Below the pieces are notes generated by a model. The model did not search any database. It saw only the letters and a list, made by a program, of their open reading frames with translations, and was not told where the DNA came from. Positions 9,001 to 53,705 of a DNA stretch of 64,000 bases are shown here, one piece after another (position 1 is the stretch's first letter; every line of letters starts with the position of its first letter). The DNA is taken from contig NC_086107.1 of the NCBI RefSeq assembly GCF_963921235.1, positions 105,898,001 through 105,962,000 on the forward strand, written 5' to 3'. A program made the translations under genes and the position numbers. The stretch is from Mobula hypostoma. Its lineage: Eukaryota.

Positions 9001-12000
9001 GGTTCAGTGTGTGTGTGACCTGTTCCCCCAGTGAGGGTCATTGTGTGTGTGGAACCTATTCCCCCAGTGAGGGTCATTCTGTGTGTGACCTGTTCCCCCA
9101 GTGAGGGTCAGTGTGTGTGTGTGACCTGTTCCCACAGTGAGGGTCAGTGTGCGTGTGACCTGTTCCCACAGTGAGGGTCCGTGTTTGTGTGTGACCTGGT
9201 CACCCAGTGAGGGTCAGTGTGTGTGTGTGTGTGACCTGTTCCCCCAGTGAGGGTCAGTGTGTGTGTGTGTGACCTGTTCCCCCAGTGAGGGTCAGTGTTA
9301 GTGTGACCTGTTCTACCAATGAGGGTCAGTGTGTGTGTGTGTGTGTGACCTGTTCCCCCAGTGAGGGTCAATGTACGTGTTTGACCTGTTCCCCCAGTGA
9401 GGGTCAGTGTGTGTGTTTGTGACCGGTTGCCCAGTGAGGGTCAGTGTGTGTGTTTGACCTGTTCCCCCAGTGAGGGTCAGTGTGTGTGTGTGTGTGACCT
9501 GTTCCCCCAGTGAGGGTCAGTGTGTGTGTCTGACCTGTACCCCCAGTGAGGGTCAGTGTGTGTGTGTGACCTGTTACCCCAGTGAAGGTCAGTGTGTGTG
9601 TGTGACCTGTTCCCCCAGTCAGGGTCAGTGTGTGTGTGTGACCTGTTCCCCCAGTGAGGGTGAGTGTGTGTGTGTGACCTGATCCCCCAGTGAGGGTCAG
9701 TGTGTGTGTGACCTGTTCCCCAGTGAGGGTCATTCTGTGTGTGACCTGTTCCCCCAGTGAGGGTCAGTGTGTGTGTGTGACCTGTTCCCACAGTGAGGGT
9801 CAGTGTGCGTGTGACCTGTTCCCACAGTGAGGGTCAGTGTTTGTGTGTGACCTGGTCACCCAGTGAGGGTCAGTGTGTGTGTGTGTGACCTGTTCCCCCA
9901 GTGAGGGTCAGTGTGTGTGTTTGTGACCGGTTGCCCAGTGAGGGTCAGTGTGTGTGTTTGACCTGTTCCCCCAGTGAGGGTCAGTGTGTGTGTCTGACCT
10001 GTACCCCCAGTGAGGGTCAGTGTGTGTGTGTGACCTGTTACCCCAGTGAGGGTCAGTGTGTGTGTGTGTGACCTGTTCCCCCAGTGAGGGTCAGTGTGTG
10101 TGTGTGTGACCTGTTCCCCCAGTGAGGGTCAGTGTGTGTGTGTGACCTGTTCCCCCAGTGAGGGTCAGTGTGTGTGTGTGACCTGTTCCCCCAGTGAGGG
10201 TCAGTGTGTGAGTGACATGTTACCCCAGTGAGGGTCAGTGTTTGTGTGTGACCTGGTCACCCAGTGAGGGTCAGTGTGTGTGTGTGTGTGACCTGTTCCC
10301 CCAGTGAGGGTCAGTGTTAGTGTGACCTGTTCTACCAATGAGGGTCAGAGTGTGTGAGGGTCCGTACCCCAGTGAGGGTCAGTGTACGTGTTTGCCTGTT
10401 CCCCCAGTGAGGGTCAGTGTGTGTGTTTGTGACCGGTTGCCCAGTGAGGGTCAGTGTGTGTGTTTGACCTGTTCCCCCGGTGAGGGTCAGTGTGTGTGTG
10501 TGTGTGTGACCTGTTCCCCCAGTGAGGGTCAGTGTGTGTGTGTGACCTGTCACCCCAGTGAGGGTCAGTGTGTGTGTGTGTGACCTGTTCCCCCAGTGAG
10601 GGTCAGTGTGTGTGTGTGACCTGTTCCCCCAGTGAGGCTCAGTGTACATGTTAGACCTGTTCCCCCAGTGAGGGTCAGTGTGTGTGTGTGACCTGTTCCC
10701 CCAGTGAGGGTCAGTGTGTGTGTGACCTGTTCCCCCAGTGAGGGTCAGTGTGTGTGTGACCTGTTCCCCCAGTGAGGGTCAGTGTGTGTGAGTGACCGTC
10801 CCCCAGTGAGGGTCAGTGTGTGTGTTTGACCTGTTCCCCCAGTGAGGGTCAGTGTGTGTGTGTGTGTGTGACCTGTTCCCCCAGTGAGGGTCAGTGTGTG
10901 TGTCTGACCTGTACCCCCAGTGAGGGTCAGTGTGTGTGTGTGACCTGTTACCCCAGTGAGGGTCAGTGTGTGTGTGTGACCTGTTCCCCCAGTGAGGGTC
11001 AGTGTGTGTGTGGAACCTATTCCCCCAGTGAGGGTCAGTGTGTGTGTGACCTGTTTCCCCAGTGAGGGTCATTCTGTGTGTGACCTGTTCCCCCAGTGAG
11101 GGTCAGTGTGTGTGTGTGACCTGTTCCCACAGTGAGGGTCAGTGTGCGTGTGACCTGTTCCCACAGTGAGGGTCAGTGTTTGTGTGTGACCTGGTCACCC
11201 AGTGAGGGTCAGTGTGTGTGTGTGTGACCTGTTCCCCCAGTGAGGGTCAGTGTGTGTGTTTGTGACCGGTTGCCCAGTGAGGGTCAGTGTGTGTGTTTGA
11301 CCTGTTCCCCCAGTGAGGGTCAGTGTGTGTGTGTGTGTGACCTGTTCCCCCAGTGAGGGTCAGTGTGTGTGTCTGACCTGTACCCCCAGTGAGGGTCAGT
11401 GTGTGTGTGTGACCTGTTACCCCAGTGAGGGTCAGTGTGTGTGTGTGTGACCTGTTCCCCCAGTGAGGGTCAGTGTGTGTGTGTGTGACCTGTTCCCCCA
11501 GTGAGGGTCAGTGTGTGTGTGTGACCTGTTCCCCCAGTGAGGGTCAGTGTGTGTGTGTGACCTGTTCCCCCAGTGAGGGTCAGTGTGTGTGTGACCTGTT
11601 CCCCCAGTGAGGGTCAGTGTGTGTGTGACCTGTTCCCCTAGTGAGGGTCAGTGTTTGTGTGTGACCTGTTCCCCCAGTGAGGGTCAGTGTTAGTGTGACC
11701 TGTTCCCCCAGTGAGGGTCAGTGTGTGTGTGACCTTTTCCCAGAGTGAGGGTCAGTGTGTGTGTGGGACCTATTCCCCCAGTGAGGGTCAGTGTGTGTGT
11801 GACCTGTTCCCCCAGTGAGGGTCAGTGTGTGTGTGTGACCTGTTCCCCCAGTGAGGGTCAGTGTGTGAGTGTGACCTGTTCCCCCAGTGAGGGTCAGTGT
11901 GTGTGTGACCTGTTCCCCCAGTGAGGGTCAGTGTGTGTGTGTGACCTGTTCCCCCAGTGAGGGTCAGTGTGTGTGTGTGACCTGTTCCCCCAGTGAGGGT

Positions 12001-15000
12001 CAGTGTGTGTGTGTGACCTGTTCCCCCAGTGAGGGTCAGTGTGTGTGTGACCTGTTCCCCCAGTGAGGGTCAGTGTGTGTGTGTGACCTGTTCCCCCAGT
12101 GAGGGTCTGTGTGTGTGTGTGACCTGTTCCCCCAGTGAGGGTCAGTGTGTGTGTGTGACCTGTTCCCCCAGTGAGGGTCAATGTGTGTGTGTGTGACCTG
12201 TTCCCCCAGTGAGTGTCAGTGTGTGTGTGTGACCTGTTCCCCCAGTGAGGGTCAGTGTGTGTGTGGGTCCTGTTCCCTCAGTGAGGGTCAGTGTGTGTGT
12301 GACCTGTTCCCCCAGTGAGGGTCAGTGTGTCTGTGACCTGTTCCCCCAGTGAGGGTCAGTGTGTGTGTGACCTATCCCCCAGTGAGGGTCAGTGTGTGTG
12401 TGTGACCTGTTCCCCCAGTGAGGGTCAGTGTGTGTGTGTGACCTGTTCCCCCAGTGAGGGTCAGTGTGTGTGTGTGACCTGTTCCCCCAGTGAGGGTCAG
12501 TGTTAGTCAGACCTGTTACCCCAGTGAGGGTCAGTGTGTGTGTGTGACCTGTTCCCCCAGTGAGGGTCAGTGTGTGTGTGTGACCTGTTCCCCCAGTGAG
12601 GGTCAGTGTGTGTGTGACCTGTTACCCCAGTGAGGGTCAGTGTGTGTGTGTGTGACCTGTTCCCTCAGTGAGGGTCAGTGTGTGTGTGACCTGTTACCCC
12701 AGTGAGGGTCAATGTGTGTGTGTGTGACCTGTTCCCCCAGTGAGAGTCAGTGTGTGTGTGTGACCTGTTCCCCCAGTGAGGGTCAGTGTGTGAGTATGAC
12801 CTGTTCCCCCAGTGAGGGTCATTGTGTGTTTGGGACCTATTCCCCCAGTGAGGGTCAGTGTGTGTGTGACCTGTTCCCCGAGTGAGGGTCATTGTGTGTG
12901 TGACCTGTTCCCCCAGTGAGGGTCAGTGTGTGTGTGTTACCTGTTCCCCCAGTGAGGGTCAGTGTGTGTGTGTGTGACCTGTTCCCCCAGTGAGGGTCAG
13001 TGTGTGTGTGTGACCTGTTCCCCCAGTGAGGGTCAGTGTGTGTGTGTGTGACCTGTTCCCCCAGTGAGGGTCAGTGTGTGTGTGTGTGACCTGTTCCCCC
13101 AGTGAGGGTCAGTGTGTGTGTGTGACCTGTTCCCCCAGTGAGGGTCAGTGTGTGTGTGTGTGACCTGTTACCCCAGTGAGGGTCAGTGTGTGTGTGTGAC
13201 CTGTTACCCCAGTGAGGGTCACTGTTAGTGTGACCTGTTCTACCAATGACAGTCAGTGTGTGTGAGGGACCGTCCCCCAGTGAGGGTCAGTGTGTGTGTT
13301 TGACCTGTTCCCCCAGTGAGGGTCAGTGTGTGGATGTGACTTGTTACCCCAGTGAGGGTCAGTGTGTGTGTGTGACCTGTTCCCACAGTGAGGGTCAGTG
13401 TGCGTGTGACCTGTTCCCCCAGTGAGGGTCAGTGTGTGTGTGTGACCTGTTCCCACAGTGAGGGTCAGTGTGCGTGTGACCTGTTCCCACAGTGAGGGTC
13501 AGTGTGTGTGTGACCTGTTCCCCCAGTGAGGGTCAGTGTGTGTGTGTGACCTGTTCCCACAGTGAGGGTCAGTGTGCGTGTGACCTGTTCCCACAGTGAG
13601 GGTCAGTGTGTGTGTGACCTGTTCCCCCAGTGAGGGTCAGTGTGTGTGTGACCTGTTCCCCCAGTGAGGGTCAGTGTGTGTGTGACCTGTTCCCCCAGTG
13701 AGGGTCAGTGTGTGTGTGACCTGTTCCCCCAGTGAGGGTCAGTGTGTGTGTGGGACCTGTTCCCCCAGTGAGGGTCAGTGTGTGTGTGACCTGTTCCCCC
13801 AGTGAGGGTCAGTGTGTGTGTGTGACCTGTTCCCCCAGTGAGGGTCAGTGTGTCTGTGACCTGTTCTCCCAGCGAGAGTCAGTGTGTGTGTGACCTGATC
13901 CCCCAGTAAGTATCAGTGTGCATGTGTGACCTGTTACCCCAGTGAGGGTCAGTGTGTGTGTGTGTGACCTGTTCCCCCAGTGAGGGTCAGTGTGTGTGTG
14001 TGTGACCTGTTCCCCCAGTGAGGGTCAGTGTGTGTGTGACCTGTTCCCCCAGTGAGGGTCAGTGTGTGTGTGTGACCTGTTCCCCCAGTGAGGGTCAGTG
14101 TGTGTGTGTGACCTGTTCCCCCAGTGAGGGTCAGTGTGTGTGTGTGACCTGTTCCCCCAGTGAGGGTCAATGTGTGTGTGTGTGACCTGTTCCCCCAGTG
14201 AGGGTCAGTGTGTGTGTGTGACCTGTTCCCCCAGTGAGGGTCAGTGTGTGTGTGGGTCCTGTTCCCCCAGTGAGGGTCAGTGTGTGTGTGACCTGTCCCC
14301 CAGTGAGGGTCAGTGTGTGTGTGTGTGACCTGTTCCCCCAGTGAGGGTCAGTGTGTGTGTGACCTGTTCCCCCAGTGAGGGTCAGTGTGTGTGTGGGACC
14401 TGTTCCCCCAGTGAGGGTCAGTGTGTGTGTGTGACCTGTTCCCCCAGTGAGGGTCAGTGTGTGTGTGTGACCTGTTCCCCCAGTGAGGGTCAGTGTGTGT
14501 GTGTGTGACCTGTTCCCCCAGTGAGGGTCAGTGTGTGTGTGACCTGTTCCCCCAGTGAGGGTCAGTGTGTGTGTGTGACCTGTTCCCCCAGTGAGGGTCA
14601 GTGTGTGTGTGTGTGACCTGTTCCCCCAGTGAGGGTCAGTGTGTGTGTGTGTGTCCTGTTCCCCCAGTGAGGGTCAGTGTGTGTGTGTGTGTGTGTGTGA
14701 CCTGTCCCCCAGTGAGGGTCAGTGTGTGTGTGTGACCTGTTCCCCCAGTGAGGGTCAGTGTGTGTGTGTGACCTGTTCCCCCAGTGAGGGTCAGTGTGTG
14801 TGTGGGACCTGTTCCCCCAGTGAGGGTCAGTGTGTGTGTGTGACCTGTTCCCCCAGTGAGGGTCAGTGTGTGTGTGACCTGTTCCCCCAGTGAGGGTCAG
14901 TGTGTGTGTGTGACCTGTTCCCCCAGTGAGGGTCAGTGTGTGTGTGTGACCTGTTCCCCCAGTGAGGGTCAGTGTGTGTGTGTGACCTGTTCCCCCAGTG

Positions 15001-15376
15001 AGGGTCAGTGTGTGTGTGTGTGACCTGTTCCCCCAGTGAGGGTCAGTGTGTGTGTGTGTGTCCTGTTCCCCCAGTGAGGGTCAGTGTGTGTGTGTGACCT
15101 GTTCCCCCAGTGAGGGTCAGTGTGTGTGTGTGTGACCTGTTCCCCCAGTGAGGGTCAGTGTGTGTGTGTGACCTGTTCCCCCAGTGAGAGTCAGTGTGTG
15201 TGTGACCTGTTCCCCCAGTGAGGGTCAGTGTGTGTGTGTGGGTCCTGTTCCCCCAGTGAGTTTCAGTGGGTGTGTGACCTGTTCCTCCAGTGAGGGTCTG
15301 TGTGTGTGTGGGACCTGTTCCCCCAGTGAGAGTCAGTGTGTGTGTGTGACCTGTCCCCCAGTGAGTGTTTGTGTGT
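1..15376. repeat. Tandem satellite: about 24-bp core GACCTGTTCCCCCAGTGAGGGTCA separated by variable (GT)n, monomer about 34-46 bp, roughly 400 copies; runs off the left edge of the window
   Basis: Directly visible periodicity. All Cys/Val-rich and His/Thr-rich ORFs in 1-15400 are translations of this monomer. Confidence 0.98.
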
Positions 15377-15756
15377 TTCTGGAACCCATCACCCTAGTGT
15401 GAAGCAATACCTGTGGAATCCCTGCACAGCTGTACTCAATGTCTATGGACCTGGCACCCAGGTAGGATTTCAGTATCGCTAGGGCTGTACCCCAGTGATA
15501 TTAAGAGTGTGGGAGTCCTGTATCCCAATGGACATCAGTGATTGTAGTCCGATTCCCATCTGTAATTGGGTACCTCTGGAACCCATACCAAGTGAGACAC
15601 AGGTTTTATGTAACCCATTTTCCTGGGGAAGTACTATTTATGTTCTACTGATAGGTGATCAACAAATTAACATAGTTTTCAATGTACCTGATTTGTACAT
15701 CACATTAAACATGCGTAATGATGAAATCAAAGTAGTAAACAGAAAATATTACTCAC

Positions 15757-16813
15757 CCTGAATTACTACTGTCACTGGAATCACTAGAATCATTAGATTC
15801 ACTGTTTTCACTGGAGTCATTGGATCCATTTGAGTCATCTGAATCATTAGAGTCATTGGAATCACTGGAGGCACTGGAATCTTGGGAGCCACTGCTTTCA
15901 TTGGAGTTACTGGAATCGCTTGAGTCACCAGAATCACTTGAACCTTTTCCTCCACTGGAGTCATTGTTATCATCAGAGTCATTTGAGTCACTGGAATCAT
16001 TGGAGTCTCCAGAATCACTGCTATCTGCAGAATCATTAGAGTCACTGCTGTCACCAGCAACTCCAGAATCACTGCCGTCACTGGAATCATCTGAATCACT
16101 GCCATCACTGGAATCATTAGAATCACTGCTGTCACCAGAGTCATCGGAATCACTGTTATCACTGGAGTCATCAGAATCACTGCCATCACTGGAGTCATCA
16201 GAATCACTGCCATCACTGGAGTCATCAGAATCGCTGCTGTCACTGGAGTCATCGGAATCACTGCCATCACTGGAGTCATCGGAATCACTGCTGTCACTGG
16301 AGTCACCTGAATTGCTGCTGTCACTGGAGTCATCAGAATCGCTGCTGTCACTGGAGTCACCTGAATCGCTGCTGTCACTGGAGTCATTGGAATCGCTGCT
16401 GTCACTGGAGTCACCTGAATCGCTGCTGTCACTGGAGTCATCAGAGTCACTGCTATCACTGGAGTCATCAGAGTCACTGCTATCACTGGAGTCATCGGAA
16501 TCACTGCTGTCATTGGAGTCATCAGAGTCACTACTATCACTGGAGTCATCGGAATCACTGCTGTCACTGGAGTCATCGGAATCACTGCTGTCATTGGAGT
16601 CATCGGAATCACTGCTGTCACTGGAGTCATCAGAATCACTGCTGCCACTGGAGCCATCAGAATCACTGCTATCGCTAGAGTCACTGCTGTCACTGGAGTC
16701 ATCGGAATCACTGCTATCACCAGAGTCACTGGAGTCACTGCTATCACTGGAATCACTGCTATCACTGGAATCACTGCTATCGCTGGAATCACTAGAATCT
16801 CCCTCTCCAGTCC
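15757..16813 (-). CDS. Exon 4 of a secreted Asp/Ser-rich (phosphophoryn/DSPP-like) protein, about 352 aa, mostly (SSDSSDSDD)n from a 27-bp unit
   Basis: Minus-strand acceptor ttttgttattttgtattccAG|GG ACT GGA GAG (phase 1, matches exon 3). Open frame [11 protein letters not shown]...SSNSG with synonymous variation between units. Ends at TCA GG|GTGAGT (phase-2 donor), or reads on to TGA at 15753-15755. Confidence 0.9.
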
Positions 16814-17600
16814 CTGGAATACAAAATAACAAAATTTAGGTTCAATTTATGAATAAGCCGTTTTGCACAGCTGACATAACAGTGGCATTAAATATGTTTG
16901 ATCTCATGGAGCATACAGGAATTACATGTGACCTTTGAATCGTCTGTCCAGTGGTGGTTCACCTTCCTGATTGTCATCATCGATCCAGTCAGGGCCCAGA
17001 AGTTCATGGCCACATTTGTTGCCAGGCACTGCCACGGAGCGTTAATGGCACCAGCACATAATGCAGCAAATCCTGTCATCGTCAATCTCCAGTGCAGCAA
17101 GGTATCACTCGCTGCAGCGTCCAGTGCAACAGAGCATCGCACGTCACAGCAGGCAGCACGACAGAGCATGGAAGCCACCCGCAGTCCTGGACCAGAGTCA
17201 TTAACCATGCCTCTCTCCCCCCAGCAAGTGACTGAATGTTTCCAGCATGTCAGCATGGAACATAGAACATGAAAGCACAGGACAGGCCCTTCGGTCCATG
17301 ATGTTGTGCCAGCCTTTTAACCTACTCCAAGGTCAACCTTACACTTCCCTCCTGCATCGCCCAAAGCTCTCCATTTGCCTTTCATCTCTGTGTCTACCTA
17401 GAAGTCTCTCAAATGTCCCTAACGTATCTGCCTCTACTGCCCTCCCTGGCAGTGTGCTCCCAGCACCCACCACTCCCTTACCTCTGACATCCCTTCGATC
17501 ACAGCTGACTTATTTTCCCCCACAACCCCGTCCTCCTGTCTTCTCTCCATAACCTTTGACACACTTACTAATTGTGAATCCATCAACCTCCGCTTTAAAC

Positions 17601-17915
17601 ATAGATAGATAGATAGATAGATAGACATACTTTATTGATACCGAGGGAAATTGAGTTTCATTACAGTTGCACCAACCAAGAATAGAGTGTAAATATAGCA
17701 ATATAAAACCATAAATAATTAAATAATAATATGTAAATTATGCCAGATGGAAATAAGTCCAGGACCAGCCTATTGGCTCAGGGTGTCTGACCCTCCAAGG
17801 GAGGAGTTGTAAAGTTTGATGGCCACAGGCAGGAATGACTTCCTATGACGCTCTGTGTTGCATCTCGGTGGAATGAGTCTCTGGCTGAATGTACTCCCGT
17901 GCCCAACCAGTACAT
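17601..17915 (-). mobile_element. 3' end of a Rex1/Babar-type LINE with (TATC)n tail
   Basis: Encodes ...IPPRCNTERHRKSFLPVAIKLYNSS. A related copy is split at 25905-25985 and 26452-26595. Confidence 0.65.
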
Positions 17916-18734
17916 ACCCAGTGACTTGGCCTCCACAACTGTCTGTGACAAAGAATTCCTCAGATTCACCACCCTCTGACTGAAGAAATCCCTCCTCATT
18001 TACTTTTTGGCTGGTTTGACACAGCATTATGAGCCAAGGGGCCTGTTTCTGTGCTGTACTGTTCCATGTTCTATGAGATACCCTCAAGGTCCCAATTATC
18101 CTTCCTGATGACCATTCTGAGTATTCAGGATGTCAGCAGCAGAAAAACTGGAGCAGCTGTTAGAGCCATTGCTTCAGAGCTCCAGAGACACGGGTTCAAT
18201 CCTGACCACAGGATCTGTTCGTGCGGAGTTTGCGCGTTCTCCCCTGTGACCGGGTGAGTTTGCTCCTACACCTCAAGGTGGTGCGGGTTGGTAGGTTAAT
18301 TGGCCACTGTAACCAGTCTCTAGCGTGAAGGAGAGTGATAGAATCTGCAGCGAGTTGATGGGAAATGGGGAGAATAACAAATTGTTTCACATAGGAGTAT
18401 GTAGAAACAAGTGCTTGATTAATCAGCATGGATTTGATGGGCCGAAGGGCCTGGTCTATGCTGTAGCTAAATTTCTATTCACCAACACATCCTGTGGTTC
18501 TCCATTTGGTCGCTTGGTCCCTCAGGAAACTTATCTCTCTCATGGTGGTCCTTGCCCACATTACTGGCCCTACCTACCCCATCGTTTGACCTTTTGCACC
18601 GGAATGTTTCCCCATTTGGGACAACTCTTCCGGAGAGGTTGAGAATGAGCTACCTCTGGAACTCAGGCCCACTCAGAGTGTAACACGGCGGGAAGTGGCT
18701 GGTGAGACCAGAGGAGAGGAGTCAGGTGACCTAC

Positions 18735-18890
18735 CTCCGTGCCCATCGCCGTATCCCTGTCCTTTCACACTCCCTTCCCAGCCTCCGTGCCAGTGGCCAG
18801 TCCCGACGTCGTACCCATTCCCATTGTAGTCTCCTTTTCCTGCGCCTGTGCCACGTCCATATCCATGTCCAGCCCCGTTCCCGGTGGACT
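18735..18890 (-). CDS. Exon 3 (156 bp, phase 1-1): ESTGNGAGHGYGRGTGAGKGDYNGNGYDVGTGHWHGGWEGSVKGQGYGDGHGG
   Basis: Acceptor cttctatttcAG|AG TCC ACC and donor CAC GGA G|GTAGGT. Length is a multiple of 3 and the frame is open. This frame is not listed in the ORF track. Confidence 0.85.
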
Positions 18891-19200
18891 CTGAAATAGA
18901 AGCGATTCATTGAAATAGGGGAGGAGTGGAAACTGACCGAGCTGCCACGTACGTATATCATGGGCAAAGCGTTGGCCACTGGGAGCTGGATAGAAAGTGT
19001 CTGGAGGATTATGGGACACGTGCAGGCAGATGGGGTGAGCTGACAACCGGCACGGACGGGTCAGGCCGAAAGGCCTGTTGCCATGCTGTAGGACTCCATG
19101 ATTCCAGCTCGCTGGGCTCTGAAATCTCCGCCCCTGGCAAGCATTAGCTGAATCATGAAGCTGCCAACTCACTGTGAGAGAAGAGAGGTTGGACACTCAC

Positions 19201-19401
19201 CACCGCTGTCGTCACCGTGGCTATTGTTATCTCCGCTATCGCTGCTTTCGGCGCTGTATCCATTGCCGTAGCCGTAGCCATTGTCATACCCGTTGCCATA
19301 GCCGTAGCCATTGTCATACCCGTTACCGTAGCCGTAATTACCTCCATCGCTTTCATTACTGTCACTCTCAGCACTGCGCCGTGCCAAAGCATGGCCAAGA
19401 T
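19201..19401 (-). CDS. Exon 2 (201 bp, phase 1-1): HLGHALARRSAESDSNESDGGNYGYGNGYDNGYGYGNGYDNGYGYGNGYSAESSDSGDNNSHGDDSG
   Basis: Acceptor cccttctctctgattccAG|AT CTT GGC and donor AGC GGT G|GTGAGT. Overlaps ORF 19169..19387. Contains a 30-bp internal repeat. Confidence 0.88.
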
Positions 19402-19929
19402 CTGGAATCAGAGAGAAGGGACATTAGGATGGGGAGGGTGGCACACTTGGTATCCATTGAATACCTACGCACCATGTGACTATTCTGCAACGCTGTCACC
19501 GTCAACCAGGCGCTAGTAAATTTCAACCAATCAGTGACGCCATGGCCTGAAGCTCCTCAGTGATTGGTGCAAGCCAATGACTGACAGGGACCTCAATGCC
19601 TGATGGTATTGATATAGGTTTACTGCTGTCACATGTACCTGGGTTCAACGAGAAGCTTGTCTTGCATACTTATCATACCGATCAAATCATTGCACAGTAT
19701 ATCGAGGTAAATCTGGTAAACCGGAGAAAGCACAGTGCAGGTAAACAATAAAATGCAAGATCATAACGAGGAGGATTGTGAGGTCAAGAGTTCACCTTAT
19801 TGTCCATGAGGTCTGTTCAAGAGTCTGTTGGTAAATACGTAAAAAATGATAGCAAGTAGCTTTTCATTCATGATTCCCTGATTTGGCTCTTACATGAGAC
19901 CCATTGAACTGAGAAAAGATAAAGTGCAG

Positions 19930-20200
19930 GGTGAGCCCAGCCTGTCCCTGGGCCACTAGACTGACTGGCTCAGTTGGGGGATCTCCTGGGCCTGGCCTTG
20001 GTGACCATCCAGGGGCCCAGGTGGCAGGCAGTCAAGAACACAGCCTACGCCAGTTGCCTGCCTCACATCTGTGGTTATGTTTGTGCCTGAGTGCCCCTGG
20101 GCAAGGAGCACGTGGTATCCACTGTGACACTGGGGTCTTCCAGGACCAGTGGGCATCACATGGGTTTGAGTCTGGTTTGGATATTGATGAAAGAGTTGTA
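19930..20200 (+). mobile_element. Degenerate Tx1/L1-type LINE ORF2 C-terminal fragment
   Basis: Broken peptide resembling LLGLAKVAI...GYVRARVSLEREHAVST...F.DRWA; recognised from memory only. Confidence 0.35.
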
Positions 20201-20304
20201 ATTTGAAGTTATTAAGCTTTTTTTTTGACTTTTAGGTTGAATGTGGGTTTGAACTTAGCTTTGGATTTGGATTTGAATGTAGCTTTGTAAAAATGTAAGA
20301 CGAT

Positions 20305-20800
20305 AAGACCATAAGATATAGGAGCAGAAATAGGCCATTTGGCCCATCAGGTCTGCTCCACCATTTCATCATGGCTGATCCATTTTCCCTCTCAGCCCCA
20401 ATCTCCTGCCTTCTCCCTGTATCCCTACATGCCCTGACCAATCAAGAATCTGTCAGCCTCTGCCTTAAATATACACAGTGACTTGGCCTCCACAGCCGCC
20501 TGTGGCAACGAATTCCACAGATTCACCACTCTCTGGCTAAGAAATTCGTCCTCATCTCCATTCTAAATGGACATCCCTAATTCTGAGGCTGTGTCTTCTG
20601 GTCTTGGACTTCCCCCACCATAGGAAACATCTTTACTATATCCACTCTATCAAGGCCTTTCAACATTCGATGGATTTCAATGAGATTCCCCCCCCCCTTC
20701 TGAATTCTAATGAAAACAGGCCTAGAGCCATCAAACACTCTTTATATGCCTTTCAATTCCCGGATCATTTTTGTGAACTTCTTTTGAACCTTCTCCAATA
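20305..20800 (-). mobile_element. CR1-type LINE 3' fragment
   Basis: 3' UTR motif (atcagccatgat...gatgggccaaatggcct...ctgctcctatatcttatggtct tail) shared with the CR1 copies at 24140, 44070 and 47100. Confidence 0.7.
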
Positions 20801-23800
20801 ATGACGCCATAATCACAGAATAAACCTCCTTTGGAAAAGGTCAGAAGAAGCAAGTAGCCTAGTCAATCTCAGGTGAACTGACTGGGACCGAGCTCCAGTA
20901 TCGCCTGAAGCCTGCAGTCCATCCGAGAGTAACTCGGGAAGTTCTGTGATGAGAAATGGAAAACGCACAGTAACACACACAAAACGCTGGAGGAACTCAG
21001 CAGGTCAGGCAGTGTCCATGGGGAGGAATAAAGAGTCGACGTTTCAGGCTGAGACCTTTCACCAAGAATGGAAAGAAGAGGAGAAGAATGCAGGATCAGA
21101 AGGCAGGAGAGAAGGGGGGTGAAACTGATGACTTCCTGGCTAAGTTTAGGGACAATGTAAAGATAGGTGGAGGAGTAGATAGTGTTGAGGAAGCAGAGAG
21201 GCTGCAGGAGGACTAGACTAGGAGAATGGACAAGGAGGTGGCAGTGTCAGGAAGTGTATGATCGTGCACTCTGGTAGTAGGAATAAAAGCATAGATTATT
21301 TTCCAAACAGCCAGAACATGACTGGAAGTTAGAGAACTTAATGAAAATGTTGTCAGGTTGGAGGCTAGCCATTCAGAATACCCTCTATTTACCCTTTGGT
21401 TTCCTTCTATAGCTGTCAAACATATTTATTCAAATCTGCCTGAAACCCCAGTCTGTGGAAGAGCTTATTAAGAACGAGAGCCTCTTTCGCCTCTCCCCAG
21501 CTTTTTTTTTATTTTGGCATTTTCCCCCTTCCTTCTCAGTCCTGAAGAAGGGTTTCAGCCCAAAACGTCGACTGTTTTTACTTTTCCACAGACGCTGCCT
21601 GACCTGCGGAGTTCCTCAGTATTTTGCGTGCGTTGCCCAAGAGGTATAGGCGCAAGAGGGGGTAAGGAGTTTTAAAGGCCGTCTGAGGGGGTCAGTTTTT
21701 TTTTTACACAGAGTGGTTGATAGTTGGAACACGCTGAAAGAGGAGGTGGTGGATTCAATTACAGTTATTACATTTGGATAGGATAACAGAATAATAACTG
21801 TTCCTGGATCAGGTGGTGTGGGTCCTGAGGCTCTTTTACTTTATTTGCTGCTGCCATTAGGAACCTCTGTCACAGGAAAGCAGGGACCCCCATTACCCAG
21901 GCTCTGGTCCCTTTCTACTGCTGCCATCAGGAAGAATGTACAGGAGCCTCGGGACTTACATCACCAAGTCCAGGAATAGTTACCACCCCTCAACCATCAG
22001 GCCCTGATCTAGAGGGGGTAACTTCACTCACCCCATCACTGAACTGTTGCCACAACCCATGGACTCACTTTCAAGGACTCTTCATCTCATGTTCTCGATA
22101 TTTAAGGCATCTGTTAGTCTTGCGGGACCATGGATCTGCGCCTGGAAAGTCTTCACTCTCCAAGGCGCAGGCCTGGGCAAGGTTGTATGGAAGACCAGCA
22201 GTTGCCCATGCTGCAAGTCTCCCCTCTCCATGACACCAATGTTGTCCAAGGGAAGGGCAGTAGGACCCATACAGCTTGGCACCAGTGTCGTCGCAGAACA
22301 CTGTGTGATTAAGTGCCTTGCTCAAGGACACAACACGTTGCCTCGGCTGGGGCTCGAATTCACGACCTTCAGGTCGCTAGTCCAATGCCTTAACCACTTG
22401 GCCATGTGCCCAGTCTTGATATTTATTGCTTATTAATTATTTATTTATTATTTTTGCTCCTTGCACAGTTGCTTGTCTTTTGCACATTGGATGTTTGTCC
22501 ATCCCGTTGGGTGCCATCTTTCATTGATTCTATTATGTTTCGTGGACTTACTATGAATGCCCACAAGAAAATGAATCTCAGGGTTGAATATGGTGACGTA
22601 TATGTACTTGGATAATAAATTTACTTCGAACTTTGAACCTAGAATATAAATAGGGAGGGCACAGGTGGATATATCCTAAAGTGAGTAAATGGGCTTTACA
22701 TCAATTGGTGGAAAAGATCAACATGGACACAGTGATCCAAAGGCCAGTTTCTGTGCTCTACAGTTCTATATGACAGTGGGTGTCCTTGTAGGCACAACAC
22801 ACCGATATAACATGAACACCACAAGCAGTTCACATGGCTCCCTCTATTGCAAGAGGGTTGGAATTCTTAGGAAAGTCTTGCTGTTGTTTTATACATCTCT
22901 GGCGAAATCATTCCCGGTCTAACATAGAACACAGAACAGTACAACACAGCAAGACTGTGCTGACCTTTTAACCTACCCTAAGATCAATCTAACCCTTTCC
23001 TCCCACATAGCCCTCCATTTGTCTCTGATCCACCTAAAAGTCTCATAAATCTCTCTAGTATTTCTGCCTCTACCACTATCCTCAGCATGCATTCCACGCA
23101 CACGTCATTCTCTGTCACAACCACAGATTCGACAGCGCTGTAGATACGGCAATTGCGCTCATGGATATGTACATGTGAGCTAATTATTATTTCATAGTGA
23201 TCGTATTTAACTCCATTCATTCCGTCGTAGTATTTGTCGAGACTTGGACACAGCAACACTTCGCTGCCTGCTTGCATTCCGCCTTGCCTGAGAAATTGGA
23301 CTGTCAAGTCAACTGACTCTGGAAACTCTGAAGCTTCAGTGTCTCTCACTCCGCACTTGGGCCATATCCGAACCCAGTGACAATTCTCTGTGTAAAAAGA
23401 GACTACCTCTGACATCCCTCCCTATACGTTCCTCCAATCACCTTAAAATTATGCCACCTCGTAATAGCCAGATCACAAAGTACTCCAGCAGGTGATTAGG
23501 CTGGGAAGGCTCAGCTCATCATGGGGACCCAACTACCAGATTTGGAAACAATCTTCAACTCTCGAAGACAACAGTGAGCTCGCAACAGTATTAAAGACCC
23601 ATCCCACCCCAGACTCTGTCTGTTCAATCTCCTGTCATCGGGTAAGAGGCACAGAAACATCTTAGCGAAGACAATAAGACTGAAAAACAGCTTCTTTCCA
23701 AGGGCTGTTGTGCAGCTGAGTAATGCCACACCCCGGCTTGCCAATGGCCCCTGTGTGTTATGAACTGTTAAAGTCACTTGCTGCATGTAAACATGGGAAT

Positions 23801-24139
23801 TTTAGCTATTTATTTATTCATTTGTTTGTTTGTTTGCTTGTTTATCTATCTATTTATTTATTCAAGAGCTGAAGGTCATGGGTTAAGGGTGAAAGGTGAA
23901 ATATTTAAGGGGAACATCTTCACTCAGGGGATGGTGAGGTTGTGGAACAAACTGACAGTGGAAGTGGTGGATGCAAGTTCAATTTCAACATTGAAGAGAA
24001 ACTTGGTTAGGTACATGGATGGGGGAGGGGTACGGAGGGATATGGTCCAGGTCCAGGTTGATAGGATGAGGCAGAATAATAGCTCAGCATGGACTAGATG
24101 GGCCAAAGGGTCTACTGTAGTTCCTTATGACTCATCCTT

Positions 24140-24640
24140 AGCCTGTGTTGGCGACTGTCCAGAGGAGATTCAGGAGCATGATCCGGGAATGAAAGGGTTA
24201 ATGCACGAGGCGCGTTTGATGGCTTTGGGCCTGTGGTCAGTGGAGTTTAGAAGAATAAGTGACGACACAATTGAAATAATGAAAGGCCTAGATAGAGTGG
24301 ACGTGGAGAGAATGTTTCCTCTAGTGGGGGAGTCTAGGACCAGAAGGCACAACCTCAGAATGCAAGGATGTCCCTTCAGAACAGACGTGAGGAGGAATTT
24401 CGTTAACTAGAGGGTGTTGTATCTGTACAACTCATTACCACAGTCAGCTGAGGAGGCTTAGTCATTGGGTGTATTCAAAGCGAAGGTTGATAGGATCTTG
24501 ATTGGTAAGGGAATCAAAGGTTATGGGGAGAAGGCTAGAGAATGGGGTTGAGAGGGAAAATAAATCAGCCATGATGGAATGGTGGAGCAGACTCGATGGA
24601 CCGAATGGCCTCGCTCTGCTCCCATGTCTTATGGTCTTAC
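24140..24640 (+). mobile_element. CR1-type LINE 3' fragment
   Basis: Encodes PGMKGLMHEARLMALGLWSVEFRR...KGLDRVDVERMFPLVGESRTR, followed by the CR1 3' UTR. Confidence 0.75.
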
Positions 24641-25985
24641 GGACAAGCCATCCATTTTGGGTCAAATCTGAAATCCTGGTCATCTGAGTGAGGTTTAAAG
24701 GGGATGCTGGTGTGGGTGGAGAGACAGAGGCTTCTGGAATAAATTCCAGAGCTATAGGTCTCCCCAGCTGAAGGCATGGCTGCTGTAGGTCGGAAAGAAT
24801 GATGGAGAGTGCAGAACTAGAGGAGCACGGAGCTCTCAGGAGATTGTAGAGGGTCAACAGTGGTGAAACTAGTCAGACGTGCAGAGTAGCAGAGTTGGAG
24901 GTGATTAAGTCTTGCTGGGAGGAAGGTTAAGAGAAGGAACAGAGACAGGGAGGGTAGCAAGAATTATTCATGTTAAATGTCCATTTCCCTTCTGCTAAGA
25001 AGGGTTGTTCTGATGTGGGCATAAATTGAGAAAGTTTCAAAACTTTCCCGTAGCCGAACTAGTATGTAAACCTCTTTACTGAATCAATAGTGACTCACTA
25101 AATACATCAGTCAGTTCTGTAATGAAGTGCACTCTACAACCTTCCACTGATCCACAAAGGGAATACAGTCTCCAGACCAGCCACAGAGTACACACAAGCC
25201 TTGGTACATACTGGAGAGTGGAATTTCTGACAACTTCCTCTCCACCATCCTTCACCTAGCTCCACCATCCTTCACCTAGCTCCAGTCACTCTCCCAAACG
25301 TCAATTCCCTCTTGCAATCTACTCTCCATCTTCCCTTCTCCCAGTCTCTATCTACCTATCCTTCTGAATTCCATCTGCCCCACTTCCACCCATCTCCCTC
25401 CTTCTCCCAACCTATCTCCTGTCATTCCTATTCTCTCATCCATCCACGTGTTTATTTAGAGATACAGCGTGGAATTGGCCCTTCCGGACCTTTGACCAGC
25501 CACCCCTGAAAACCCTGAATTAACCCTAACCTAATCACGGTACGATTTACAATGACCAATGAACCTACTGGGATAATTTGTACCGTACCCTACAATTTTA
25601 ATTTGGCTCTTTACTTTGTTTATCTATGCGTAATTCTTACTTTCTTAAGTTATTGTGTGTTATGTGTACTATTGTGTTTCACACCCTGCTCTGGAGAAAC
25701 GTTGTCTAGTTTAGGGTTGTACGCCTATACAGTTAAGTGACAGTAAACTTGACTTGACTTTGGACTGCAGGAGGAAACAGGAGCACCTGGAGAAGGACAT
25801 GCAGAGACCTCTTGGAGAAGAAGCTGGAATCGAACTCCAAACTCTGACTACCCAAGCTGTAATAGCGTTGCACTAATCACAACACCACCTCTCCATCCTT
25901 TAGATATATAGATAGACATACTTTATTGATCCTGAGGGAAATTGGGTTTCGTTACAGTTGCATTAACCAAGAATAGAGTATAAAA

Positions 25986-26452
25986 CCTTGCAGAGGGTGG
26001 TTAGGGGAGCAGAGAAGGTTATTGGGGTCTCCCTACCTTCTGTCCAAGACCTCTTTCACAGTCGATGCCTCCAGAAGACACGGTACATCATTAAAGACCC
26101 CTCACACCCTCTCCATGAACTGTTTGTTCTTCTGCCATCAGGCAAACGTTACAGGAGCATCAAAACTAAAACCACAAGGCTACTAAACAGCTTCCTCCCA
26201 CAGGCAGTCAGACTGCTAAATAGCTGCTCTACCTGACTCTGCTTTGGACACTTTTAACTTGCACTGGACACTTATAACTGATTTTAACTGACATGTGGCT
26301 GTTGTGTTTTACTATTTATCGTTATGTTTATTATTTAGTGTTGCATTTGTTATGTTATGATTGCACTGCCCCTGAGAAACGCTGTCTCATTCTGCCCCGC
26401 AGAGCTGATGTACGGTCAGAATGACAATAAAGTTTTTTGATTTGATTTGATT
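25986..26452 (+). mobile_element. Rex1/Babar-type LINE 3' end nested in an older element
   Basis: ORF QRVVRGAEKVIG...IIKDPSHPLHELFVLLPSGKRYRSIKTKTTRLLNSFLPQAVRLLN, then AATAAA and a (TTTGA)n tail. Confidence 0.75.
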
Positions 26453-28319
26453 AAATATAGCAATATAAAACCATAAATAATTAAATAATAGCATGTAAGT
26501 TATGCCAGATGAAAATAAGTCCAGGACCAGCCTATTGGTTCAGAGTGGGAGGAGTCGTAAAGTTTGATGGCCACAGGCAGGAATGACTTCCTATCCTTCT
26601 TTCCCTCTATTCACTCCTCTCCCAATCTATCTATTTCTTCTGATCGCCAATCTCTGTCCCTTTCTTTTCTGATTCACATATATTCCCTCTACTGATCTTC
26701 ATCCGTCCTATCCCATAATTATTCTCCATTCCTGCTCCTCTTTGCTGTCCACCTGGAAAGCGGGAAGGGCTAGAACTGGCCATGGTGAACTTTGCGAATA
26801 AATAGCCCACCCAAATGCCCCATCTGGAGCGCCACACACTCAGAAAGTAATGGTTCCTGAAGGTCTCCCTTACTGGGCGAGCTGACTTCGAATAAGAATT
26901 GGTGTCTTTCAGGAAGAGTGTGGGAATAAGAATCAAAATCAGGTTTAATATCACTGTAAGATTGTAGCTTTGTGGCAGCAGTACAGTGCAATACATTTTA
27001 AAAAAGCTATAAATTACAATTTAAAATATGTGTTTATAAAATTTAAATTAAATAAGTATTACAAAAAGAGAACGACGTAATGCTTGGGCATTGGTCCATT
27101 GTCCATTCAGAAGCTTGACGGCAGAGGGGAAGAGGCTGTTCCTAAAGCTTTGTGTGTGTATGTTCAGGGTCCTGTACGTGCATCCTGATGGTAGTAATAA
27201 GAGGAGGGCGTACTCTGGGTGATGGGAGTCCTTAATAATGGTTGCCACCTTTTTTGAGACATTGCCTTTTGAAGATGTCCCCGATACTGGGGAGGATAGT
27301 GCCCATGATGGAAATAGGATTGGGGATTTTTTTTTTAAATATCCCAGGAAGTCCATGGAGTGTGTTGTGCTAACTTGGAGATGGAACGCCGGGATAATGT
27401 GGACTCACTGGACAAGGTCTTTCGGGCTGTTGTTGAGCACAGACTCTCTTAGCTTTCTCCAACAAAGAGTGGGCCTGTTTATTGACAAACGCCAACTTAC
27501 TTTGGACTCCAAATGGAACTGTAATCCTCATTGAATATACCTACTCAACACACGGCTAGATGCTATTGAGCTTTTCTTGGGTATAATGTGAACTTCGTCC
27601 CAAATGCCAGTCTCACATATTGGTCAAATGGAAACTGGGAATGAGTACTGGCATTGGTCCAGGAACCTTTTTCTTCCCTCAGGCGTTAAACCGTAAGGTA
27701 TAGGAGCAAACTGAGGCCATTCAGCCCATTGAGCCTGCTTCACCATTTGACCATGGCTGATTTATTATCCCCCTCAACCCCGTTCTCCTGCCTTCTCTCT
27801 GCAACCTTTGACGCCCTGACTGACGAAGAAGCTGTCAATCTCTGCTTTAAATATACCCACTGGCTTGGCTGTCTGCAGCAAGGAATTCCACAGTTTCCCC
27901 ACTCTCTAGCTAAAGAAATTCCTTCTCATCTCTTGCCAAAAAAACAGAACCACAGTACGGACCTCTTGGCCAACGACGTTGTGCTGACCTCTTAACCTAT
28001 TTCAAGATCAATCCAACCCTTTCCTCCCACGTAACCTTCCACTTTTCTTTCACCGTGTGTCTATCTAATGTCCCTAATGTGTCTGCCTCTACCACTACCC
28101 CTGGCAGCTCAATCCATGCACCTAGCACTCTCTGTTTCCCAAACCTATCTCTGACATCCCTCTAGACTTTCCTCTAATCACCTTAATAGTATGTCCTCTA
28201 GTATTGGCCATTAACAAACTGGGTAAAAGTCACTGCCTGTCCACTCTGTCTCTACCTCTTATCATAAAAATTAGGCTTTTAGCAGCAGTAGCCCAGTATT
28301 TTATAGAAATGACAAACCT

Positions 28320-28823
28320 CCTGTAGCTAATAAATTGGGCACTGAGTGTATGTTTATGGTCCTCTGCTGCCGTCGCTCATCTGTTTAAAGGTTCGACATG
28401 TTGTGCGTTCAGAGATGCTCTTCTGCACACCACTGTTGTAACGTGTGGTTATCTGAGTTACTGTCACCAGTCTGGCCATTCTCCTCTGACCTCGCCCCCA
28501 AAATTGCCACTCAGTGAATGTTTTTTTTGTTTTTCCCACCATTCTCTGTAAACTCTAGAGACAGTTGTGCATGAAAATCCCAAGATATCAGCAGCTTCTG
28601 AGATACGCAAACCACCCCATCTGGCACCAACAATCATTCCATGGTCAAAGTCACTTGGATCACATTTCTTCCCCATTCTGATGATTGGTCTGAACAACAA
28701 CTGAACCTCTTGACCGTGTCTGCATGCTTTTATGCATTGAGTTGCTGCCACATGATTGGCTGATTAGATGTTTGCATTAACAAGCAGGTGTACAGGTGTA
28801 CCTATTAAGGAGGCCACTGAGTG
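28320..28823 (-). mobile_element. Tc1-like non-autonomous element
   Basis: TIR CACTCAGTGGCC...; encodes a Tc1 N-terminal HTH remnant MGKKCDPSDFDHGMIVGARWGGLRISEAADILGFSCTTVSRVYREW. Confidence 0.8.
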
Positions 28824-29153
28824 TAAATGAATACATTTCTACATCCCAAGATGTGCTCCCTTCACCCTGCCACCACCTACAATCCTTTGATTTATCTGTT
28901 GCAGTCCCAAGACCTTAGCCCGGGCTCCACTTTGAGCCGGGGCACAAAGGCCGCAAAAGTTGGCATTCACCCGTCCTCCGACACCTGGCCCGTCCCAAAC
29001 CCACCCAGAGCACTGGCAATGCACAGATGGAGGGCTGCAACAGTGTCCTCCCCGCCCACCACCTCCCGGCACCGGGCGGTAACCCACCAACGGGTCAGGC
29101 TCCGGTCTTGGGGATCCCGGGGACCGGAAGGAATGGTTGTAGGTCGTACTCAC

Positions 29154-29211
29154 GTCTACCGTGGCTCACGGCCAGCAGCCCCAGCAGGGCGACGAACAGC
29201 AAGACCTTCAT
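29154..29211 (-). CDS. Exon 1 coding part: signal peptide MKVLLFVALLGLLAVSHG-R, phase-1 donor
   Basis: AGAAC ATG (A at -3), basic residue 2, hydrophobic core, S-H-G cleavage motif, donor AGA C|GTGAGT, and TATAAAA about 80 bp upstream of the ATG. Phase matches exon 2. Confidence 0.85.
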
Positions 29212-29288
29212 GTTCTTCTGCCTCTATCTCTCCTTTTCTGAGTGGGACACTTGTGTGATCTCTAATGGTGTGGAGCAGAGCTCCCGCC

Positions 29289-29295
29289 TTTTATA
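29289..29295 (-). promoter_or_regulatory. TATA box (TATAAAA) of the Asp/Ser-rich gene; predicted TSS near 29265
   Basis: Minus strand reads gagTATAAAAggcggg. The spacing gives a 5' UTR of about 55 nt with no upstream ATG. Confidence 0.75.
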
Positions 29296-29378
29296 CTCTG
29301 CCCAGTCACAGATGCCCCATTGAAGGCGGTAGGGTCACGTAGCGACTGTGGCCAAGCAGGCCAGGGAGACGGAAGGAT

Positions 29379-29385
29379 TGTGGTT
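29379..29385 (-). promoter_or_regulatory. RUNX/OSE2 consensus AACCACA in the proximal promoter
   Basis: Exact 7-mer about 85 bp upstream of the TATA box; function inferred only. Confidence 0.4.
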
Positions 29386-29780
29386 TCCCACACCACCAGT
29401 AATTCCAGAAAACCCCAATCTCTAGATCGTAATTACAGTTTTGTGAAGGCTGCCAACACCTACCAGAGCAGCAAGCAGCAATACGGAAAACAAGGCGGAA
29501 AGTGGAGAAGACTTACTAATTATCGCTTCTGCATCTTGTGGAACTTATGACAGTCACTATTGTTTTAACTTCAGACTTCATCTCAAGTTGTTTATCTCAT
29601 TCACTTGTCCCTGCCTCCTCCGTCAGAGAGGATGTTGCATCCTGATGCTTCGATTCATTTTGCTCCAATGAAACCCCGTCCATTAGCAGAGAGCGTGACG
29701 TGTGTAATCCAGGCAGGTGCCCCCCGGTGCCAGAGCTGAAAGAGGCAGAAACCATCAGACATACAGTCATTGATGTGAGA

Positions 29781-30220
29781 CTGAGGGAGTGCCTCACTGT
29801 CAGAGGGACGGTACCGAGAGAGTGCCTCACTGTCAGAGGGACGGTACCGAGGGAGTGCCTCACTGTCAGAGGGACGGTACCGAGGGAGTGTCTCACTGTC
29901 GGAGGGACAGTACCGAGGGAGTGTCACACTGTCGGAGGGACAGTACCGAGGGAGTGTCTCACTGTCGGAGGGACAGTACCGAGGGAGTGTCTCACTGTCG
30001 GAGGGACGGTACCGAGGGAGTGTCTCACTGTCGGAGGGACAGTACTGAGGGAGTGTCTCACTGTCAGAGGGACAGTTTGAAGGAGTGTCACACTGTCAGA
30101 GGGACGGTACTGAGGGAGTGTCTCACTGTCAGAGGGACAGTATTGAGGGAGTGTCACACTGTCAGAAGGACAGTATTGAGGGAGTGTCTCACTGTCAGAG
30201 GGACAGTACTGAGGGAGTGC
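29781..30220 (+). repeat. 33-bp minisatellite (about 13 units) GAGGGAGTGTCTCACTGTCGGAGGGACAGTACC
   Basis: 11-aa periodicity in ORFs (ECLTVGGTVPR); units directly visible. Confidence 0.92.
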
Positions 30221-41335: not shown

Positions 41336-41339
41336 AGTG

Positions 41340-53520: not shown

Positions 53521-53705
53521 TTATTATTATTATTGAGATACAGTGCACAATAGGCCCTTCCAGCTCTTTGAGCCACACCACCCAGTAACCCTCCAATTTA
53601 ACCCTAGCCAAGTCACGGGACCAATTACCCCACCAACCAGCACGTCATTGGACTGTGGGAGGAAACCAGAGCACCTGGAGGAAACTTACAGAGTCACAGG
53701 GAGAA

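What the first reader, a model, noticed from the sequence alone, without database searches (positions are those of the whole stretch)
15757..29211. Gene architecture is not SCPP: coding first exon and intron phases 1-1-1-2
SCPP/SIBLING genes (DSPP, DMP1, SPP1) typically have a non-coding exon 1, the signal peptide in exon 2 and phase-0 introns. Here the signal peptide is in exon 1 and the introns are phase 1,1,1 with a probable phase-2 donor. The DSS domain is therefore likely convergent, not a DSPP orthologue. A coding first exon, phase-1 introns and a final phase-2 intron match the BGLAP/MGP layout, and some fish osteocalcin isoforms have long acidic prodomains. A Gla-family origin is a testable alternative, but no gamma-carboxylase recognition propeptide or Gla domain is visible in the window.
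Basis: partly seen in the sequence, partly recalled or inferred. Interest (0 to 1): 0.75.

Follow-up and report, generated by a model that had tools for sequence, protein, structure and literature searches.

The report
Phosphophoryn-like ray gene beside osteocalcin
A likely ray genome carries a four-exon frame for a predicted secreted protein with a dentin-phosphophoryn-like Asp/Ser tract, built unlike the tooth-and-bone SCPP genes and likely spun off from the osteocalcin/matrix-Gla cluster nearby, which would give cartilaginous fishes a separately evolved candidate mineralisation protein.

Summary
Observation confirmed. Four minus-strand exons (29211-29154, 19401-19201, 18890-18735, 16813-15757) give 490 open codons with phases 1-1-1, then a consensus phase-2 donor; a TATA box lies 84 nt upstream and there is no acceptor in the leader, so exon 1 is coding. 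The product is signal peptide, short basic pro-piece, S-x-E sites, Gly/Tyr repeats and a 351-residue Asp/Ser tract; no Cys, no Gla motif. It fails the phase-0 test, so it is not an SCPP/DSPP member, though it probably works like phosphophoryn. The Gla-family idea gains support: two earlier, unchecked scan notes place a giant micro-exon osteocalcin (bgp) gene 200-260 kb downstream, and the signal peptide is closer to chondrichthyan Bgp/Mgp (5-8 of 19) than to Scpp (3 of 19). Against it: the phase 1-to-2 exon has no carboxylase docking or furin site, and exon 5 lies off-window behind a 15 kb satellite, so Gla could not be tested. No homologue and no RNA holder was found. Best reading (0.55): a cluster offshoot that lost or degraded Gla function. 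The scan showed no look-alike on other DNA.

The parts
29379..29385 (-). AACCACA, a Runx2 site of the osteocalcin OSE2 type (motif name recalled), 84-90 nt upstream of the TATA box
   Evidence: 242 of 4845 150-nt windows (5%) hold the motif, so weak
29288..29295 (-). TATA box
29154..29211 (-). Exon 1 coding part: ATG, 19-residue signal-type peptide, phase-1 donor GTGAGT at 29153
   Evidence: only hydrophobic ATG frame of 8 listed with both a TATA box and a donor
19201..19401 (-). Exon 2 (phase 1-1, 201 nt): dibasic RR, S-x-E sites, Gly/Tyr/Asn repeats (30-nt unit), second S-x-E
18735..18890 (-). Exon 3 (phase 1-1, 156 nt): 41% Gly, with His, Tyr, Trp
15757..16813 (-). Exon 4 (phase 1-2, 1057 nt): phosphophoryn-like tract, 50% Ser and 35% Asp, 27-nt core unit
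15751..15756 (-). Phase-2 donor GTGAGT (unspliced it reads Gly then TGA)
   Evidence: (rank 3 of 820)
1..15376 (.). 36-bp satellite, at least 429 copies, likely inside intron 4; no exon in it
   Evidence: (15242 of 15420 bases covered by recurring 12-mers, longest unique gap inside the array 20 nt)

Best explanation
This is the 5' four exons of a gene for a predicted secreted, unstructured Gly/Tyr- and Asp/Ser-rich protein that likely arose by tandem duplication from the mgp/bgp (Gla protein) cluster and likely acts as a phosphophoryn-like regulator of mineral deposition. Shown: exon layout, phases, composition (142 Asp+Glu, 7 Lys+Arg and 187 Ser after residue 18), absence of Cys and of Gla-family processing motifs in the four exons. 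Inferred: the signal peptide is cut near Gly18 and a short pro-piece at RR(27-28); Fam20C starts at the 6 S-x-E sites and relays along 63 S-x-S positions (Fam20C action on S-x-E from PMC9122587; the relay is recalled from phosphophoryn work); the polyanion binds calcium and steers crystal growth in dentine, denticle, tessera or otoconial matrix, with the Gly/Tyr part anchoring it. Inferred history: the ancestral layout (signal exon, phase 1-1 acidic exon, phase 1-2 docking exon, Gla exon) was kept, the phase 1-1 exon was added to, and the docking exon was replaced by an expanded Asp/Ser repeat, so any Gla exon left downstream is probably not carboxylated.
For: Gene model and splice scores. Linkage: scan notes e1-7813146 and e1-7813152 put a micro-exon-amplified bgp gene 200-260 kb beyond exon 4 on the same piece (positions from the index, identification unchecked by me). 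The family is prone to this change: catshark Bgp has 13 exons with repeated acidic exons, Mgp has the signal peptide in exon 1, docking site in exon 3 and Gla domain in exon 4 (PMC8006282 passages); teleost Bgp1b carry long Asp/Ser pro-domains (supplements 6 and 2); elasmobranch Mgp2 has Gly-Tyr repeats and the cluster has duplicated in chondrichthyans. Signal peptide, ungapped identity over 19 residues counted by eye: catshark Bgp 8, elephant shark Bgp 5 (9 with one gap), five chondrichthyan Mgp1/Mgp2 5-7, against 3 in 6 of 6 elasmobranch Scpp and 3-5 in three Sparc-L. OSE2-type site upstream of the TATA box (5% by chance).
Against: No docking motif, furin R-x-x-R or Cys in the four exons. 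Exon 5 is not in the window and no genome is held, so Gla, gene order and orientation of bgp were not tested. Leu-rich signal peptides resemble each other by chance, and this one lacks the Cys seen in every chondrichthyan Bgp, Mgp and Scpp signal peptide I compared. Mgp2's Gly-Tyr repeats are C-terminal, not in an internal exon. Phase-1 introns are common in secreted proteins (ODAPH). Four protein searches found no homologue, so conservation is unshown. The synonymous excess in the repeat is weak: 6 synonymous to 6 non-synonymous distinct variants, P 0.007 to 0.18 depending on transition bias, and the in-register antisense frame does as well (8:4).
Confidence: 0.55

Rival explanations
1. Independent orphan: a secreted acidic phosphoprotein that arose on its own (ODAPH- or starmaker-like) and only happens to lie near bgp.
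For: No Gla-family motif in 490 residues; ODAPH shows that phase-1 secreted phosphoproteins exist outside both families (PMC7807025); signal-peptide likeness is modest; gap to the bgp notes is 200-260 kb.
Confidence: 0.3
2. SCPP or DSPP relative that has moved and changed its intron phases.
For: Same module order as elasmobranch Scpp: signal peptide, basic pro-piece, S-x-E, Tyr-rich, then acidic region (PMC9122587); 57 DSS triplets.
Against: 0 of 4 junctions are phase 0; coding first exon; no PDY motif, no proline; signal peptide 3 of 19 to Scpp; scan notes point to bgp, not sparc-l, as neighbour.
Confidence: 0.04
3. Alternative 5' module of the giant bgp gene: exon 4 splices in phase 2 directly to the bgp Gla exon some 300 kb away.
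For: Phase-2 donor would fit a Gla exon (phase recalled); bgp lies on the downstream side.
Against: Needs one intron of about 300 kb skipping some 70 exons; no docking site would be included; orientation of bgp is only inferred from the wording of the notes.
Confidence: 0.04
4. Not a live gene, or not a mineral protein: a pseudogene, or a structural/mucus protein in which the Asp/Ser tract only holds water or carries glycans (13 Ser-Gly pairs, 16 N-x-S/T sites).
For: No homologue found; selection signal weak; Mgp2 and Bgp are also expressed in unmineralised ceratotrichia and soft tissue in catshark; motif counts.
Against: Intact promoter, seven consensus splice sites and 490 open codons across 13.5 kb; all 6 distinct amino-acid changes in 18 core units stay within Asp/Ser/Asn/Gly.
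Confidence: 0.12

Closest known systems
Dentin phosphophoryn (DPP part of DSPP; acidic SCPP/SIBLING)
   Same: Secreted precursor with a long Asp-Ser-Ser tract and S-x-E sites; likely the same calcium-binding role.
   Different: Introns phase 1,1,1,2 instead of 0; signal peptide in exon 1; the tract is in an internal exon; no RGD; not shown near sparc-l. DSPP details other than phase 0 and cluster position are recalled.
Chondrichthyan Bgp (catshark 13-exon gene) and teleost Bgp1b/OC2 (PMC8006282)
   Same: Coding exon 1 with a signal peptide of similar length, added internal exons with acidic S-x-E sequence, Asp/Ser-rich N-terminal expansion; likely the same genomic neighbourhood.
   Different: No docking site, furin site, Cys or Gla core in the exons seen; tract of 351 residues in one exon; Gly/Tyr exons.
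Elasmobranch Mgp2 (PMC8006282)
   Same: Divergent member of the cluster with Gly-Tyr repeats.
   Different: Mgp2 is short, keeps docking site and E-x-x-x-E-x-C, lacks phosphorylation sites, and has its Gly-Tyr run at the C-terminus.
Elasmobranch Scpp (PMC9122587)
   Same: Signal peptide, basic pro-piece, S-x-E, Tyr-rich then acidic region.
   Different: Scpp has three phase-0 introns, PDYxxPxx repeats, a Sparc-L-type signal peptide and lies beside sparc-l.
ODAPH; fish starmaker
   Same: Secreted phospho/acidic mineralisation proteins; ODAPH has phase-1 introns and is not an SCPP (PMC7807025).
   Different: ODAPH is small and has Cys. Starmaker's exon structure could not be checked in the library; its orthology to DSPP is called controversial in PMC3250972.

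Membership tests
SCPP/SIBLING | Coding introns in phase 0 | tested here: not met
   Phases 1,1,1,2; criterion from PMC9122587, PMC5118209, PMC7807025
SCPP/SIBLING | Non-coding exon 1, signal peptide in exon 2 (criterion recalled) | tested here: not met
   TATA box 84 nt before ATG, no acceptor in the leader; from DNA only, no transcript
SCPP/SIBLING | Linkage to sparc-l | not testable with these tools
   No genome held; no host-gene Pfam hit above cut-off among 150 of 165 frames of 50 aa or more in the self-unique parts of 29.3-64 kb
SCPP/SIBLING | Signal peptide, S-x-E sites, acidic low-complexity body | tested here: met
   6 S-x-E, 142 Asp+Glu; not specific to the family
Elasmobranch Scpp | PDYxxPxx repeats and Sparc-L-like internal region | tested here: not met
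   0 PDY, 0 Pro in 490 residues
Mgp/Bgp (Gla proteins) | ATG and signal peptide in exon 1 | tested here: met
   criterion from PMC8006282
Mgp/Bgp (Gla proteins) | Intron phases 1, 1, 2 (recalled for BGLAP/MGP; two papers asked for were not held) | tested here: inconclusive
   1,1,1,2 fits with one added symmetric exon, but the reference phases come from no call
Mgp/Bgp (Gla proteins) | Gamma-carboxylase docking site (and furin site in Bgp) in the exon before the Gla exon | tested here: not met
   Exon 4 has no Phe or Arg; no R-x-x-R in the model; could only be met if the next exon is not the last
Mgp/Bgp (Gla proteins) | Gla core E-x-x-x-E-x-C in the last exon | not testable with these tools
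   Exon 5 is outside the window; 1-15376 is satellite; no genome; no RNA contig on 15420-15990
Mgp/Bgp (Gla proteins) | Position in the erp27-mgp-bgp-ddx47 locus | tested here: inconclusive
   bgp noted 200-260 kb away (unchecked notes); no note in this genome for erp27 or mgp2
Mgp/Bgp (Gla proteins) | Signal peptide alignable to the family | tested here: inconclusive
   5-8 of 19 identical by eye to seven chondrichthyan Bgp/Mgp, 3 of 19 to six Scpp; lacks their Cys; no statistic run

The most novel reading that the evidence does not exclude
Rays evolved their own phosphophoryn out of the osteocalcin/matrix-Gla cluster: a third, SCPP-independent route to a DSS polyanion, possibly still ending in a Gla-derived exon, that supplies the acidic matrix for dentine, denticles or tesserae in a lineage without DSPP, DMP1 or SPP1.
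Probability: 0.4. Interest if true: 0.82.

Novelty: new variant of a known kind. Interest (0 to 1): 0.64.

Why it matters
Cartilaginous fishes make dentine and mineralised cartilage, yet the elephant shark has no SCPP genes (PMC3964593) and sharks and rays have one independently evolved, ameloblast-expressed scpp (PMC9122587). What serves as their dentine polyanion is open. This gene is a concrete candidate with a probe-ready sequence. If it came from the mgp/bgp cluster, that cluster would be a second nursery of acidic mineral proteins parallel to sparc-l, alongside the micro-exon-amplified bgp the scan noted nearby, and PMC8006282's statement that no other close relatives of Mgp/Bgp are reported would need revising. 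I found no description in the held library; subscription papers and automatic RefSeq names were not searchable, so a label such as 'DSPP-like' may exist.

Tried and rejected
No genome is held for the window, so synteny and exon 5 could not be read. Protein searches: exon 3 against longer proteins, 0 of 5 candidates at E<=10; exon 2, 0 of 87 at E<=1; exon 4 residues 245-351, 0 of 8000 scored at E<=10; exon 3 by phmmer over 1.84 billion representatives, 0 at E<=0.001; all weak for short low-complexity queries. Pfam on the four exon products: nothing meaningful. ESM Atlas: no usable hit for exon 2, only bacterial Ser/Asp-repeat clusters under 0.8 for exon 4. Scan look-ups near the window, by sequence, among relatives and for flanking gene names were empty. 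Rejected: the alternative phase for exon 1 at the weaker GT 8 nt earlier (scored under the listing; it would also be phase 1); the open antisense frame 15739-16839 and the open shifted sense frame (no start or splice context); hidden micro-exons in introns 1-3 (none passed the filter, which required strong sites and at least 55% S/D/E/G/Y/N and also missed exon 3, so weak ones remain possible). A first synonymous-change test (8) was discarded as circular because units were picked by amino-acid pattern; one search replaces it.
Full report
What is there. The minus strand carries four exons: 29211-29154 (58 nt), 19401-19201 (201 nt), 18890-18735 (156 nt) and 16813-15757 (1057 nt). Spliced at GT-AG sites they give 490 codons without a stop, with phases 1, 1, 1 and then 2. 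Donors rank 33, 7, 4 and 3 of 820 GT, acceptors 2, 59 and 3 of 1071 AG in 15400-29400 under approximate matrices of my own. A TATA box sits at 29295, 84 nt before the ATG; the leader has no acceptor-like AG and no upstream ATG, so exon 1 is very likely coding. The end of exon 4 reads Gly then TGA if unspliced, but that stop sits in G|GTGAGT, a context held by 6 of 2296 stop triplets elsewhere on the strand, and no AATAAA or ATTAAA follows. A fifth exon is therefore likely. It is not in the window: 1-15376 is a 36-bp satellite with no unique stretch over 20 nt, and no genome is held.

The product. A 19-residue hydrophobic leader, a short piece ending in RR (27-28), S-x-E sites, Gly/Tyr/Asn repeats (exon 2), a Gly-rich exon 3 and a 351-residue tract of 50% Ser and 35% Asp. 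There are 6 S-x-E, 63 S-x-S, 57 DSS, no Cys, no Pro, no RGD and no E-x-x-x-E-x-C. In 18 core repeat units tiled by DNA register, distinct variants are 6 synonymous to 6 non-synonymous (P 0.007 with no transition bias, 0.05-0.18 with strong bias; 11 of the 12 are transitions), and the in-register antisense frame scores 8:4, so this is weak evidence of selection and does not pick the strand. The strand and frame rest on the splice sites and the signal exon.

Not an SCPP. Phase-0 introns are the structural mark of SCPP genes (passages in PMC5118209 and PMC7807025), and the elasmobranch scpp has its first three coding introns in phase 0, PDYxxPxx repeats and a place beside sparc-l (PMC9122587, parts 1-2 of 6 of the text and part 1 of the supplement). 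This gene has no phase-0 junction and no PDY motif. The module order (leader, basic piece, S-x-E, Tyr-rich, acidic) does parallel elasmobranch Scpp, which I read as convergence. That SCPP exon 1 is non-coding is recalled, not read.

Case for a Gla-cluster origin. (a) Two earlier scan notes from this genome describe a gene of over 100 kb with about 70 acidic micro-exons, one of them identifying it as ray osteocalcin, listed 308,001 and 246,951 letters before this window. That is 200-260 kb beyond exon 4, depending on whether the figure counts to a note's start or end. These are unchecked AI notes; I could not read that DNA. They are also my only source for calling the animal a ray. (b) In PMC8006282 (passages, sections 15, 23, 24, supplements 6, 7, part 1 of 2 of supplement 1 and parts 1, 3, 4 of 6 of supplement 2; figures not held) Mgp genes have the signal peptide in exon 1, docking site in exon 3 and Gla in exon 4; catshark Bgp has 13 exons through added repeats; teleost Bgp1b have long Asp/Ser pro-domains; elasmobranch Mgp2 has Gly-Tyr runs; the cluster has duplicated in chondrichthyans. 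(c) Counting by eye over 19 ungapped residues, the leader matches catshark Bgp at 8 (including Arg19), elephant shark Bgp at 5 (9 with one gap), catshark, thornback ray and elephant shark Mgp1/Mgp2 at 5-7, six Scpp at 3 each and three Sparc-L at 3-5. No statistic was run. (d) An AACCACA Runx site lies 84-90 nt above the TATA box; 5% of 150-nt windows hold one. (e) Phases 1-1-2 for BGLAP/MGP are recalled; I could not obtain a text.

Case against. The phase 1-to-2 exon, which in the family carries the docking and furin sites, is here a plain Asp/Ser tract. The leader lacks the Cys present in all chondrichthyan Bgp, Mgp and Scpp leaders compared. Phase-1 introns also characterise ODAPH, a secreted enamel phosphoprotein outside both families. 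No homologue was found in four protein searches, in Pfam or the Atlas. No flanking host gene was found in 29.3-64 kb: 150 of 165 frames of 50 aa or more were scanned, and the only hit above cut-off, ALKBH8_N at 53589-54167, lies in what I take to be a LINE remnant (15 frames, mostly in microsatellite or overlapping others, were left out).

How it likely works. Secretion, removal of leader and pro-piece, Fam20C phosphorylation from S-x-E sites spreading along the tract, calcium binding and control of crystal growth on a collagen matrix, with the Gly/Tyr segment for assembly or anchoring. All of this is inferred from composition and from what is known of phosphophoryn and Scpp; tissue is unknown. 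Catshark Bgp and Mgp2 are also expressed in unmineralised tissue, so a non-mineral role stays open.

Verdict. A real gene model (about 0.9), not an SCPP member (about 0.95), working like phosphophoryn (about 0.7), descended from the mgp/bgp cluster (about 0.6; 0.55 for origin and mineral role as stated together), with an intact Gla core in the unseen exon (about 0.25). It should not be filed as a Gla protein: the docking-site test fails and the Gla test is open. I found no description in ten library searches; PMC3964593, PMC3250972 and PMC10568847 were seen as passages only. Figure 2 of PMC8006282, which shows gene order in the chondrichthyan cluster, is not held and bears on the linkage claim. 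Interest 0.64.

Noticed in passing
window 1-15376: 36-bp satellite of at least 429 copies with strong strand asymmetry (AT skew about -0.4), starting 380 nt after the exon-4 donor and running off the window; probably an intron of more than 15 kb.
   Followed up: partly
window 15739-16839 (+) and 15749-16846 (-): Two other frames over exon 4 are fully open: an antisense Ser/Leu/Glu repeat rich in S-x-E (366 aa) and a shifted sense Val/Thr/Pro/Met repeat (365 aa). Likely by-products of the repeat that could mislead gene callers.
   Followed up: partly
window 29783-30226 and 37937-38466: Two arrays of one 33-bp minisatellite family (13.5 and 16 copies) in opposite orientation, the first about 490 nt upstream of the TATA box; several long open frames run through them.
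   Followed up: no
window 30403-31643 and 33058-33103: Dispersed 67-bp-period repeat family upstream of the gene.
   Followed up: no
window 36078-36518 (-): DDE_3 transposase remnant (E 0.0035, below cut-off).
   Followed up: no
window 41301-42096 (+), 53151-53597 (-), 53589-54170 (+), 59940-60989 (+): Retroelement remnants: frames that look like a Penelope-type endonuclease, a restriction-like endonuclease and LINE reverse transcriptase ends (labels recalled; only the ALKBH8_N hit comes from a call).
   Followed up: no
window 51582-52064: 171-bp unit in 2.8 tandem copies, apparently derived from a LINE end.
   Followed up: no
scan notes e1-7791578, e1-7813426, e1-9982425: PRRG2, IRF3 and a TIP39 paralogue are noted on the same piece 4-11 Mb away; from recall these are human 19q13 genes, not the 4q22 region around SPARCL1, which fits non-linkage to sparc-l but was not tested.
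   Followed up: no
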